Below, one piece after another: positions 12,027 through 18,259 of a stretch of DNA of 34,458 nucleotides (within the stretch, counting starts at the first letter, position 1; every line of letters begins with the position of its first letter). The notes below the pieces were generated by a model. The model did not search any database and was not told the origin of the DNA. It saw only the letters and a program-made list of their open reading frames with translations. Made by a program: the position numbers and the translations under genes. This stretch comes from a virus (Duplodnaviria; Caudoviricetes), in the IMG/VR virus record IMGVR_UViG_3300025396_000041, positions 1 through 34,458 of that record. One strand, 5' to 3'.

Positions 12027-12851
12027 ATGTCAGACAATCCACTTAAACAGTTTTTTCGCAGACCATCAGTATATCTAAAATTGCCTAGCGGGGGCCAAGG
12101 ATATCCTTTAGGATCAATTGATATTCCAGAGAACGGTGAAGTTCCAGTGTACCCAATGACTGCAATTGACGAGATTACAAGCAAAACACCTGACAGTTTG
12201 TTCAACGGTGCTGCTGTTGTTGAATTGATTAGAAGCTGTGTTCCTAGTATCAAAGACCCTTGGGCAGTTCCAAACATTGATTTGGATCCTATCTTAGTTG
12301 CAATACGTGCAGCAACACACGGTTCTACTATGGAGATCGAAACTAAATGCCCAAGCTGTGAAGAATATTCTAAGTTTGACGTTAATTTAACTGGTGTTCT
12401 TGCTGGATTTAATCCCGGTGACTATCAATCATTACTAGAGTTGGGAGACTTGAAAATCAAGTTTAAACCAATGTCATACAAACAAGTGAATGAAGCTAGT
12501 TTAAAACAATTCAATGTTCAACAATCACTAAGAACGGTAATGAATACAGAGGATGAAGACGAAAGAACCGCAAAAAGCGATATTTTGATGAAAGAGATAT
12601 TGTCACTAACAGTTGACTTGATTTCCACAACGATTGAATATATCAAAGCCCCAACAGCAACAGTGTTTGAACGTGAATACATCATTGAGTTTCTACGTGA
12701 ATGTGATGCTAAAACCTTTGACCAGATCAAAACCTATAGCACACAACTAAAAGAAAGCACTGAGAATAAACCATTGAACATTACATGTCCTCAATGCCAA
12801 CACGAATTTAAACAAGCATTCAATATCAACGTTAGTGATTTTTTCGACTAA
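12027..12851 (+). CDS. gp26: T4 gp26-like baseplate hub/tail assembly protein
   Basis: Motifs YLKLPSGG, VYPMTAIDE, DLDPILVAIRAATHG, two CxxC (CPSC, CPQC) and a C-terminal DFF. SD AGGAG. Confidence 0.8.
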   Translation: MSDNPLKQFFRRPSVYLKLPSGGQGYPLGSIDIPENGEVPVYPMTAIDEITSKTPDSLFNGAAVVELIRSCVPSIKDPWAVPNIDLDPILVAIRAATHGSTMEIETKCPSCEEYSKFDVNLTGVLAGFNPGDYQSLLELGDLKIKFKPMSYKQVNEASLKQFNVQQSLRTVMNTEDEDERTAKSDILMKEILSLTVDLISTTIEYIKAPTATVFEREYIIEFLRECDAKTFDQIKTYSTQLKESTENKPLNITCPQCQHEFKQAFNINVSDFFD

Positions 12852-12888
12852 GACTTTTAACTTTGGGTCCGGAGGAAGTTAAAAGTCT
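12839..12888 (+). other. Putative programmed -1 ribosomal frameshift signal
   Basis: Slippery heptamer T TTT TTC (12839-12845), 5-nt spacer, then perfect 13-bp inverted repeat AGACTTTTAACTT/AAGTTAAAAGTCT (12851-12863/12876-12888). The -1 frame is open into the next ORF. Confidence 0.8.
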
Positions 12889-13075
12889 ACTAGACAACAT
12901 GGAAAAAGAATGTAGTCAGATTAAGGCAGACTCACTTAAAATGGCATGGTATATGAGAGGTGGTATTTCATATGAAGATATCCTTAACCTCTCAATTAGT
13001 GAAAGACAAGCAATTAGTAAAATTATTGAAAGTAACTTGGAAACAACTAAGACAAGTAAATTGCCATTCTTCTAA
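12845..13075 (+). CDS. gp51: gp51-like domain, probably expressed as the -1 frameshift extension of the gp26-like protein
   Basis: WYMRGGISYEDILNLSISER resembles gp51/tail-chaperone T-type motifs. It is in the -1 frame of the upstream gene. Neither TTG 12863 nor ATG 12899 has a well-placed SD. Confidence 0.7.
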   Translation, partial: RLRLLTLGPEEVKSLLDNMEKECSQIKADSLKMAWYMRGGISYEDILNLSISERQAISKIIESNLETTKTSKLPFF

Positions 13076-13108: not shown

Positions 13109-13185
13109 AACACTAACGATGAGCTTCGCTCATCAACCTTCACTTATTTCTTCGCTTTGCTCAGAAATTACGCTCGGTTATTGTT
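13109..13185 (-). other. Branched hairpin element with GCGAAGC mini-hairpin (ssDNA signal or terminator)
   Basis: Outer arms 13109-13117/13177-13185 (8 of 9 complementary) enclose GATGAGC-GAA-GCTCATC and ATTTCT-GA-GC-AAA-GC-GA-AGAAAT (minus-strand reading). Confidence 0.55.
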
Positions 13186-13223
13186 TTGTATTCTTTTAGT
13201 AATTCTAGTAGTAATATCTTTAA

Positions 13224-13600
13224 GGGGAATACACTTGCCGCTTAGAAGCCATGGTAGTGCTGTTCAAGCACTACCATTGGATTAACTTGCCATGCCCGTC
13301 TTCCACGTTGTTTATACCCGTATATTCTGCCAACTTTACTAAGCAAATATACGCCACCGGTTGCCCTATAAGGTTTATGGTCTGTAGTTGAATATACGCA
13401 CGGTTTAGTGTTTCATTCTGCAACGCATGTTCTATACCATCAAAACAAAGTAGGTATAGACTCATTGAGAGTTCGCTGTTTACTCGATTGCTCTCTCGGT
13501 GTTCCACACAATCAAAAGATCATGTGCTCTTCTCCAGAATCTGACGGCACAGCACAATCTGTACAATCTCAAGGAGGACTGACAAACTCAGTCAACGAAT
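13224..13600 (-). ncRNA. Candidate large structured non-coding RNA (~380 nt), family not recognised
   Basis: At least five clear local stems and a 12-bp long-range helix. Several helices need G-U pairs that exist only in the minus-strand RNA. No credible ORF. Boundaries are approximate. Confidence 0.65.
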
Positions 13601-13615
13601 TAAGGGTTCTGTATA

Positions 13616-14146
13616 TTAATTATTTTGATTTTGACTTGGTGTCTGCGAATATGATTTTACTAAATCTTTGTTTTTGTTGAAAAAGTTAGAATGTTCCATG
13701 ATGATCCAATCGCCCCATTGCTTGCTACTGTATAGAATGCATGAATCTGCTTTCCATGTTAGCTTGCCTTGGACTGCGACATATTGACCCTTACGATTAA
13801 ACTTCATAAAAAGAAGATTTAAATCGCCTTCGTCTTCTACATCAAGTAGTTGCTCTAGCCACGAATCAAGTTGTTTACACTCACCCGTAAGAGTTAAGTG
13901 CCACGGAAAGTCAGCATAGAATTTGCATTCTATATTCATTCTACTGAAACTTTGTCCTGGAACAATGTCTCCTTTGAATGAACGAATCTGACCTTCGTGC
14001 AAGACTTCGGTTCTTGCTTGATTCTTGCCACCCACATATGCGCCGGAACCGGGAGCACGAATGAACGATTCTCCGTAAGTTTCTGATAGAAACTTGGCTA
14101 CTTCTCTTTCGTAACCTGAACCTTTGTTTTTCTGTGGACTTGGCAT
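13616..14146 (-). CDS. Holliday junction resolvase-like PD-(D/E)XK nuclease (Hjc-like)
   Basis: Motifs KNKGSGYEREVA, RAPGSGA, GDI, IECK. Lies downstream of gp47/gp46. Confidence 0.85.
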   Translation of the reverse strand: MPSPQKNKGSGYEREVAKFLSETYGESFIRAPGSGAYVGGKNQARTEVLHEGQIRSFKGDIVPGQSFSRMNIECKFYADFPWHLTLTGECKQLDSWLEQLLDVEDEGDLNLLFMKFNRKGQYVAVQGKLTWKADSCILYSSKQWGDWIIMEHSNFFNKNKDLVKSYSQTPSQNQNN

Positions 14147-18230: not shown

Positions 18231-18259
18231 ATTGTAATACTTTTGTTGCAGAAATGCAA
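18231..18259 (-). promoter_or_regulatory. sigma70-type promoter TTGCAT-N17-TACAAT for gp55
   Basis: -35 at 18259-18254, -10 at 18236-18231, 17-nt spacer. Overlapped by the palindrome TGTTGCA-N4-TGCAACA. Confidence 0.65.

What the first reader, a model, noticed from the sequence alone, without database searches (positions are those of the whole stretch)
13224..13600. Unrecognised ~380-nt highly structured RNA immediately downstream of the resolvase-like nuclease
Seen, minus-strand RNA 5'->3': GACUGA/UCAGUC (13593-13577). Then a long-range helix UGCUGUGCCGUC (13554-13543) with GACGGGCAUGGCA (13300-13288), 12 bp with 2 G-U and 1 bulge, closing ~240 nt. Inside it lie CACAUGAUC-UUUU-GAUUGUGUG (13526-13505, 2 G-U), GAGAG/CUCUC, UCUAUACC/GGUAUAGA (13460-13431), CGUAUAUU-UGCU/GGCA-G-AAUAUACG (13353-13319) and possibly GCGUUG/CAACGU. 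After it comes the perfect 10-bp AUGGUAGUGC/GCACUACCAU (13277-13251), flanked by GGCAAGU direct repeats. The G-U pairs would be A-C mismatches on the other strand, which fixes the orientation. This is by far the largest non-coding gap in a tightly packed window. I see no hallmark of tRNA, tmRNA, RNase P, group I/II intron or hammerhead. Inference, three models: (1) a folded pre-primer RNA forming an R-loop ahead of the AT-rich/hairpin element, analogous to ColE1 RNA II; (2) an RNA partner or guide of the adjacent PD-(D/E)XK nuclease; (3) a new stand-alone large phage ncRNA or ribozyme.
Basis: partly seen in the sequence, partly recalled or inferred. Interest (0 to 1): 0.85.

Follow-up and report, generated by a model that had tools for sequence, protein, structure and literature searches.

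The report
Jumbo-phage knotted RNA, likely replication primer
The gene-free gap holds a conserved element of about 370 bases whose compensating base changes show a doubly knotted RNA-type fold, followed by twin short repeats and DNA-type hairpins; it likely is an RNA that grips its own DNA to start phage genome copying, which is untested.

Summary
Real. G-U outnumbers A-C 185 to 25, which fixes the minus strand. The window has no Rfam match. A sister subfamily carries Polynucleobacter-1 (RF01718) as an alternative 5' domain. Cultured RaK2-like phages have an element with the same 3' anatomy at the same locus, in 4-5 co-oriented copies; that link rests on synteny and motifs only. Key clue: two short repeats flanking the last hairpin change together to the same letter (101/108 here; 66/66, 66/66, 65/66 in the sister group; copy-specific in cultured phages), with no complement nearby in the two groups searched. 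This fits RNA pairing with its own template DNA, as ColE1 RNA II does. An A+T-rich tract and C-GNA-G hairpins follow. Best reading: origin pre-primer RNA (0.55), with no transcript or origin data. The nuclease-guide model is weak, because three unrelated nucleases occupy the upstream slot. The scan noted this element before on other genomes.

The parts
13233..13600 (-). Structured RNA element, about 370 nt, double pseudoknot; ends inferred from conservation
13577..13593 (-). P1 hairpin
   Evidence: 2 of 6 pairs covary at E<=0.05
13532..13576 (-). P2 domain, CUCC/GGAG closing stem; homologous to the 5' domain of sister subfamily B
   Evidence: 108/108 paired at 4 pairs; profile hit E=6e-8 to L548
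13505..13526 (-). P3 variable hairpin
13355..13501 (-). Core junction closed by P4 (13501-13497/13359-13355), holding P5 (13495-13467), P6 (13465-13427) and P7 (13424-13419/13365-13360)
   Evidence: 96-100% paired with compensatory changes
13308..13448 (-). Pseudoknot PK1: P6 loop 13448-13443 with 13313-13308
   Evidence: 3 of 6 pairs E<=0.05, 10-13 double changes on the tree each
13316..13381 (-). Pseudoknot PK2: 13381-13379 with 13318-13316
   Evidence: 13381:13316 shows U-A 69, A-U 13, G-C 10, C-G 10
13319..13353 (-). P10 hairpin
   Evidence: 8 of 11 pairs E<=0.05
13285..13295 (-). Repeat copy 1, GC-(AU bulge)-GGCAAGU; proposed DNA-pairing segment
   Evidence: first letter identical to copy 2 in 101 of 108, 58 expected
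13251..13277 (-). P11 terminal hairpin between the repeats; sequence nearly invariant
13233..13241 (-). Repeat copy 2, GC-GGCAAGU; conservation ends here; proposed DNA target site
13170..13232 (-). A+T-rich tract, like a DNA unwinding element (inferred)
   Evidence: 75% A+T in the 45 nt after copy 2 against 57% in the RNA, n=108
13147..13167 (-). Hairpin with tandem G-A pairs (loop AAA here, GAA in most relatives)
   Evidence: pattern in 93 of 108
13118..13134 (-). Perfect hairpin with C-GAA-G triloop, DNA mini-hairpin type
   Evidence: C-GNA-G is the best hairpin in 82 of 108
13633..13643 (-). GAC-N5-GTC palindrome in the resolvase gene tail; role unknown
   Evidence: 83 of 94 loci
13616..14146 (-). 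Holliday junction resolvase gene (PHROG 244, PF24608); upstream neighbour, replaceable
12027..13075 (+). Baseplate hub gene (PHROG 150) and 70-aa ORF; convergent downstream neighbours
18231..18259 (-). TTGCAT-17-TACAAT sigma70-like promoter ahead of the sigma-SbcD-SbcC-resolvase operon; possible source of the transcript (inferred)
   Evidence: read

Best explanation
The element is a conserved, doubly pseudoknotted RNA-type structure with twin repeats, an A+T-rich tract and GNA hairpins behind it, and it likely works as a replication-origin pre-primer RNA. Inferred steps: (1) It is transcribed on the minus strand, here probably as the 3' end of the sigma-SbcD-SbcC-resolvase operon. (2) The knotted body folds and presents repeat copy 1. 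(3) With P11 looping out the 54 nt between the repeats, copy 1 pairs with the template DNA strand at copy 2 (7-9 bp, small bulge) and nucleates an R-loop into the A+T-rich tract. (4) The displaced strand folds into G-A and C-GNA-G hairpins that load helicase or primase. (5) The RNA 3' end, made by RNA polymerase release or RNase cleavage, primes the phage DNA polymerase. Shown by sequence comparison: the fold, the strand, the repeat identity and the downstream hairpins. Not shown: transcription, the R-loop, priming.
For: Twin repeats change to the same letter. Clade A: 101/108 against 58 expected, E<=0.05 on the tree null. Sister clade B: 66/66, 66/66 and 65/66 at three variable positions against 33, 39 and 34 expected; at the first two positions all 14 and 7 parsimony changes are joint (14 of 80 loci could not be anchored and were left out). 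No fixed complement in cis: 1 of 67 in B, 0 of 21 in RaK2-like copies. Paralogs in one genome differ but each matches itself: GAP32 99 kb copy ACC/CCGTCAG against ATC/TCGTCAG in the other four; XaC1 117 kb copy. This points to a partner in cis. ColE1 precedent: an rG stretch in the RNA pairs with a dC stretch in the template (PMC4412123, passage). T4 origins are a promoter plus an A+T-rich unwinding element, are multiple, and three lie near strand switches (PMC3016281, passages). C-GNA-G hairpins lie on the strand that would be displaced: 82/108 and 50/65; such mini-hairpins occur at G4 and RSF1010 priming sites (PMC13037366, passages). GAP32 has five co-oriented copies 64-84 kb apart, each behind TGGTATAAT. 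The element is single-copy in 4 complete lake genomes searched with the core model and lies 4.8-5.7 kb from the genome-wide divergent gene-strand switch in 4 of 4 genomes analysed. A 5'-3' exonuclease gene (PF02739) is in 5 of 5 genomes (that T4 RNase H belongs to this family is recalled).
Against: No data on transcript ends, strand, R-loop or origin firing; the RNA-library contigs cannot show them. A 7-9 bp bulged hybrid is weak on its own. T4 R-loop formation needs no specific sequence, so a complex fold is more than T4 requires. Identity is imperfect: clade A position 7 is 95/108 against 83.5 expected; RaK2-like position 4 is 16/21, with five G/C or T/C mismatches. Mismatches show no clear wobble bias. 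A cis complement was not searched directly in clade A; there I rely on the absence of a covarying partner column. No dedicated promoter found in the window: 3 sites against 3.7 in shuffles. The strand-switch position is shared synteny, not four independent cases. The GC-skew minimum is near the element in only 2 of 4 genomes, and fourfold-site skew follows the gene strand. No RNase HI in 5 of 5 genomes. The link from the window's clade to cultured phages is not detectable by profile (0 hits; B to C E>=0.12). Vibrio phage 2.275.O and SCTP-2 show no such gap beside the nuclease slot.
Confidence: 0.55

Rival explanations
1. A stand-alone large RNA or ribozyme acting as a free RNA or RNP. The twin repeats would be symmetric contacts (homo-pairs, a dimer interface, or two sites for a dimeric protein), and the hairpins a terminator or tail.
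For: Complex tertiary fold with invariant unpaired motifs such as ACUACA and GCGAAC. The last hairpin scores as terminator-like. The repeats differ completely between clades while the fold persists.
Against: Fixed locus across genera. Paralog-specific repeat matching argues against one shared protein. The downstream loops follow the DNA C-GNA-G rule with a free middle base.
Confidence: 0.2
2. Same RNA-DNA capture, but used to start recombination-dependent replication, concatemer resolution or packaging and not primer extension; the R-loop or displaced strand is cut by a junction nuclease.
For: All the repeat evidence applies. The main copy sits behind SbcCD and a nuclease gene: resolvase, GIY-YIG or endonuclease VII.
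Against: Extra copies examined in cultured phages lie among small hypothetical genes. 11 of 47 clade-B loci have another gene directly upstream.
Confidence: 0.13
3. Guide or scaffold RNA of the adjacent PD-(D/E)XK nuclease, like the RNAs of TnpB or IscB.
For: 160 of 160 close resolvase loci carry the RNA directly downstream (the profile was built from 47 of them).
Against: Three unrelated nuclease folds fill the slot. G006 has the GIY-YIG gene and no resolvase hit; G002-G004 the reverse. SCTP-2 has the resolvase without a gap. There is no variable guide, only a self-matching repeat.
Confidence: 0.06
4. A cis-acting mRNA element (stabiliser, antiterminator or terminator) at the end of the recombination operon, or a template whose repeats serve reverse-transcriptase jumps.
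For: It lies at an operon end between convergent genes; template jumping would also demand identical repeats.
Against: No reverse transcriptase (PF00078) in 5 of 5 complete genomes. GAP32 copies have their own promoters.
Confidence: 0.06

Closest known systems
ColE1 RNA II pre-primer (PMC4412123, PMC4555960, passages seen)
   Same: Folded RNA ahead of an origin; an RNA segment pairs with the template strand to make a persistent hybrid; the displaced strand exposes helicase or primase sites. Proposed here by inference.
   Different: No homology tested or expected; this RNA has two pseudoknots, a mixed-sequence 7-9-nt repeat and not a G/C tract, only 50-98 nt between repeats, and no antisense RNA I was found or tested.
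Phage T4 R-loop origins oriF and oriG (PMC3016281, passages seen)
   Same: T4-type replication genes, several origins, transcript plus A+T-rich tract, position near a strand switch.
   Different: T4 origins share no sequence motif and need no specific RNA sequence; this element is a conserved structured RNA with a self-matching repeat.
Polynucleobacter-1 RNA motif (RF01718; PMC2864571, table entry and supplement hits seen)
   Same: RF01718 matches the 5' 135-157 nt of the same gap in 5 of 20 distant loci scanned, joined to the 3' core of sister clade B. Other clade-B members carry a 5' domain homologous to the window's.
   Different: The window has no RF01718 match at E<=10. RF01718 is 141 nt, lacks the pseudoknotted core and the repeats, and has no assigned function.
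DNA mini-hairpins at G4, St-1, alpha3 and RSF1010 ssiA priming sites (PMC13037366, passages seen)
   Same: C-GNA-G triloops with sheared G-A pairs on one strand.
   Different: Here they follow a large RNA gene in a double-stranded jumbo phage; protein binding is untested.
GOLLD and ROOL large phage RNAs (search listing of 10.1101/2024.12.08.627333 only; otherwise recalled)
   Same: Large, intricately folded, phage-borne, function unclear.
   Different: No Rfam match; smaller; fixed locus with DNA-type signals behind it.

Membership tests
Any Rfam 15 family (tRNA, tmRNA, RNase P, group I/II introns, ribozymes, GOLLD, ROOL) | Covariance-model match at the gathering score | tested here: not met
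   0 matches in the window; only two chance lncRNA hits at E 7-10, both outside the element; ARAGORN 0
Polynucleobacter-1 (RF01718) | 141-nt model match | tested here: not met
   No hit in the window; hits in 5 of 20 distant loci
Polynucleobacter-1 (RF01718) | Same locus and linked 3' core (superfamily relation) | tested here: met
   RF01718 sits behind the same resolvase on the clade-B core; clade B links to the window by its other 5' domain, E=6e-8
ColE1-type RNA II origin | Folded pre-primer RNA transcribed through the origin | tested here: inconclusive
   Fold shown; transcription not shown
ColE1-type RNA II origin | RNA segment pairing with template DNA | tested here: inconclusive
   Identity covariation without a cis complement fits it; no direct test
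ColE1-type RNA II origin | RNase H cleavage and extension by DNA polymerase | not testable with these tools
   RNase HI absent in 5 of 5, 5'-3' exonuclease present in 5 of 5
ColE1-type RNA II origin | Antisense RNA I control and RNA II sequence homology | not tested
   No Rfam match of any kind in the window; no direct comparison made
T4 R-loop origin (oriF/oriG) | A+T-rich unwinding element downstream | tested here: met
   75% against 57% A+T; unwinding itself untested
T4 R-loop origin (oriF/oriG) | Own middle-mode promoter | tested here: inconclusive
   None in the window; extended -10 ahead of all five GAP32 copies
Nuclease guide RNA (TnpB/IscB type) | Dedicated cognate nuclease | tested here: not met
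   Resolvase 7, GIY-YIG 29, other 11 of 47 clade-B loci; endonuclease VII in RaK2-like phages
Retron or DRT ncRNA | Associated reverse transcriptase | tested here: not met
   0 of 5 complete genomes with PF00078; a very divergent enzyme could be missed

The most novel reading that the evidence does not exclude
An ancient class of RNA origins shared by RaK2-like and lake jumbo phages: a doubly pseudoknotted RNA that actively captures its own DNA through a 7-9-nt self-guide, and whose invariant core itself catalyses strand invasion or makes the priming 3'-OH. That would be an RNA initiator in place of an initiator protein, with RF01718 as one of its swappable 5' modules.
Probability: 0.2. Interest if true: 0.95.

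Novelty: new variant of a known kind. Interest (0 to 1): 0.8.

Why it matters
How RaK2-like jumbo phages start replication was not described in the papers my ten searches returned. The element gives candidate origins in cultured E. coli phages and a sharp genetic test (copy-1/copy-2 rescue). It would extend structured pre-primer RNAs from ColE1 plasmids to giant phages, with a far more elaborate fold, and would give the orphan motif RF01718 a context. Even if the origin idea fails, repeats that covary by identity are an unusual signature of an RNA recognising nucleic acid outside itself.

Tried and rejected
UGCCG pairing with either repeat: 77-83% paired, no significant covariation. Small ORFs over the gap (78 and 90 aa): no PHROG or Pfam hit. 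BLAST of the gap against cultured phages: chance hits only; two clade-B queries gave one weak hit inside a gene and none. Core model R1 on PA5oct, SCTP-2, Phosso and G001: no significant hit; RF01718 absent there too; bulged twin repeats in their gaps were not consistent, so I do not count these phages as carriers. 13 of 119 pattern loci without a profile hit were inspected and lie in long reading frames. Cellular genomes: 0 of 120 pattern loci reached 30 bits, but only 3 of 64 parts were scanned. GC skew as origin evidence: equivocal. Other GNA-like hits in complete genomes: those inspected lie in genes. Metatranscriptomes: 7 runs with small shares; contigs touch parts of relatives' RNA region but cannot show strand, ends or level. 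Longest-common-substring test of clade-A repeats was weak (5.39 against 5.07, maximum shuffle 5.53); the position-wise test carries the signal. The pair listing for RaK2-like copies was too noisy to confirm their pseudoknots. Alignment A3 was made but no model was built from it. The PA5oct paper's four ncRNAs lie elsewhere. No complex or structure prediction was run.

Full report
Setting. The window is a 34-kb virus record of a T4-related jumbo phage. Its cultured relatives by capsid protein are Phosso, RaK2-like phages and PA5oct at 64-67% identity. The gap lies between a minus-strand operon (late sigma factor, SbcD, SbcC, PHROG 244 resolvase) and the convergent baseplate-hub gene with a 70-aa ORF. 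Rfam, at gathering score and at E<=10, and ARAGORN give nothing for the element.

Observation. Folding z-scores are modest on both strands (12 relatives range -1.5 to -5.1 sense and -1.8 to -5.1 antisense), so the case rests on comparison. All 76 resolvase loci with both flanks keep the gap. A profile built from 47 of them finds the element in 160 of 160 close resolvase loci. 255 full-length hits reduce to 108 non-redundant sequences at 67% mean identity (I call this clade A). With a G-test, APC and a tree-based substitution-shuffling null (my script, 20 simulations, not R-scape), 29 of 74,691 column pairs reach E<=0.05, 26 of them canonical. They define P1, P3, a core junction (P5, P6, P7, closed by the nearly invariant P4), P10 and two pseudoknots, both closed by one 3' strand (13318-13308). 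G-U 185 against A-C 25 shows selection on the minus strand as RNA.

Wider family. At 50-58% resolvase identity the same gap holds a diverged version, clade B. Some B members have a 5' domain homologous to the window's (E=6e-8 for L548). By eye they also keep the core order and both pseudoknots, with one PK2 pair the top covarying pair among 21 sequences. Others carry Polynucleobacter-1 as 5' domain on the same 3' core: 5 of 20 loci scanned, and 15 of 67 by a motif test. The only paper naming that motif in the library is Weinberg 2010; I saw its table entry and supplement hits, which give no function. Cultured GAP32 and 121Q have the same gene order with endonuclease VII in the nuclease slot and a gap of about 0.8 kb. 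That gap has the clade-B core motifs (CCGTT...GAC/GCAACCCGC), a terminal hairpin and twin repeats. It matches 72 phage records at 285 places. GAP32 has five copies, all on the plus strand, at 35, 99, 177, 262 and 341 kb, each behind TGGTATAAT. Profiles do not link the window's clade to these copies (0 hits; B to C E>=0.12), so that link is inferred from synteny and anatomy.

The twin repeats. One significant column pair in clade A covaries by identity: 13295 and 13241 read G-G 73, U-U 19, C-C 7, identical in 101 of 108 against 58 expected. They open two repeats flanking the last hairpin, the first with a small bulge. Outliers change the whole repeat together (for example GTTGAA twice in L258, CTGCATGT twice in L361). 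In clade B (CT-c-RGATRAN against CT-RGATRAN) three variable positions agree in 66/66, 66/66 and 65/66 anchored loci; 14 of 80 could not be anchored. In 21 copies from five cultured phages two variable positions agree 21/21 (10.5 expected each) and one 16/21; invariant positions there are partly fixed by my search pattern, and these phages are kin. Copies within one genome differ but match themselves. No fixed complement lies within the element in B or in the cultured copies. The simplest partner complementary to both repeats is the template DNA strand. ColE1 uses this logic: an rG stretch of RNA II pairs with a dC stretch of the template (PMC4412123, passage). That the two stretches lie about 245 nt apart and so form a direct repeat is recalled; my searches did not give that passage.

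Downstream signals. Conservation stops after copy 2. A 75% A+T tract follows, then a tandem G-A hairpin (93 of 108) and a perfect hairpin whose loop is C-GNA-G in 82 of 108 A and 50 of 65 B loci, with the middle base free. This is the rule of DNA mini-hairpins found at single-strand priming sites (PMC13037366, passages), on the strand that an R-loop would displace. T4 origins consist of a promoter and an A+T-rich element, are multiple, and some lie at strand switches (PMC3016281, passages). The element lies about 5 kb from the divergent strand switch in 4 of 4 complete genomes, but this is shared synteny, and GC skew adds nothing independent.

Nuclease. The upstream gene is not fixed. Among 67 clade-B loci, 47 had a scorable upstream ORF: 7 resolvase, 29 SegE-like GIY-YIG, 11 other. 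A dedicated guide role is therefore unlikely, though a junction-type nuclease usually sits nearby.

Results against the reading. There is no transcript, R-loop or origin evidence. The window has no dedicated promoter. RNase HI is absent in 5 of 5 genomes, although a 5'-3' exonuclease is present in 5 of 5. The proposed hybrid is short, and identity is imperfect at its edges. PA5oct, Phosso and SCTP-2 give no model hit. T4 needs no such RNA fold.

Novelty. Ten literature searches returned no description of this RNA or of origins in these phages. For PMC10690425 I saw the listing and searched four of six held supplements for motifs without a hit; two zip files and three large files could not be read and may hold a fragment. 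For PMC7318152 I saw passages and three parts of one supplement; for PMC4555960 one passage. The scan itself noted this element before on other genomes. I had seen the identity pair; the twin-repeat, own-DNA wording, the multi-copy lead and the RF01718 lead came from those notes and were re-tested here. Verdict: a real, undescribed structured RNA; it works most likely like ColE1 RNA II or a T4 R-loop origin (0.55) and is not shown to be a member of either.

Noticed in passing
window 12839-12863 (+): TTTTTTC just before the hub gene's stop, followed by a 70-aa ORF without ATG: candidate -1 frameshift, already noted by the scan on other genomes.
   Followed up: no
window 13643-13633 (-): GAC-N5-GTC palindrome 49-105 nt ahead of the RNA core in 83 of 94 clade-A and 10 of 46 clade-B loci; possible dimeric protein site or processing signal.
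   Followed up: partly
window 13095-13087 (-): GATAAATGA after the hairpins, the commonest such motif (31 of 108); resembles a T4 late promoter (recalled) and points antisense into the hub genes.
   Followed up: partly
window 13388-13384 and 13274-13270 (-): Invariant ACUAC is complementary to the GUAGU arm of the nearly invariant P11, and CAUGG in copy 1 to CCAUG after it: a possible alternative conformation without covariation support.
   Followed up: partly
L081:1479-2991 (PA5oct); L083:1987-3000 (Phosso); L205, L407, L408, L410: 0.75-1.5 kb gaps between hub genes and an inverted resolvase. PA5oct has TTGACA-17-TATAAT pointing into its gap, and Phosso has an RNase HI gene next to its gap. 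Possibly a distant analogous RNA; no model hit.
   Followed up: partly
G002, G003, G004 against G006: PD-(D/E)XK resolvase and SegE-like GIY-YIG gene are mutually exclusive in these four genomes. PHROG 447, labelled NAD synthetase, matches the GIY-YIG protein best, which looks like a mislabel.
   Followed up: partly
L414:4056-4747, L430, L424, L459: A further diverged version of the gap, with CACTACCC in the 5' part and GAGCG(A)TAGCGA hairpins at the end; no Rfam hit for L414 and L459.
   Followed up: no
L460:4170-4290 (approximate): Tandem array of a 15-base unit, about 8 copies, in a gap about 0.7 kb behind a resolvase gene.
   Followed up: no
L030, L032, L065, L439, L471, L474: Loci with 0.6-0.9 kb extra DNA or a rearranged hub pair beside the element; inserted genes not identified.
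   Followed up: no
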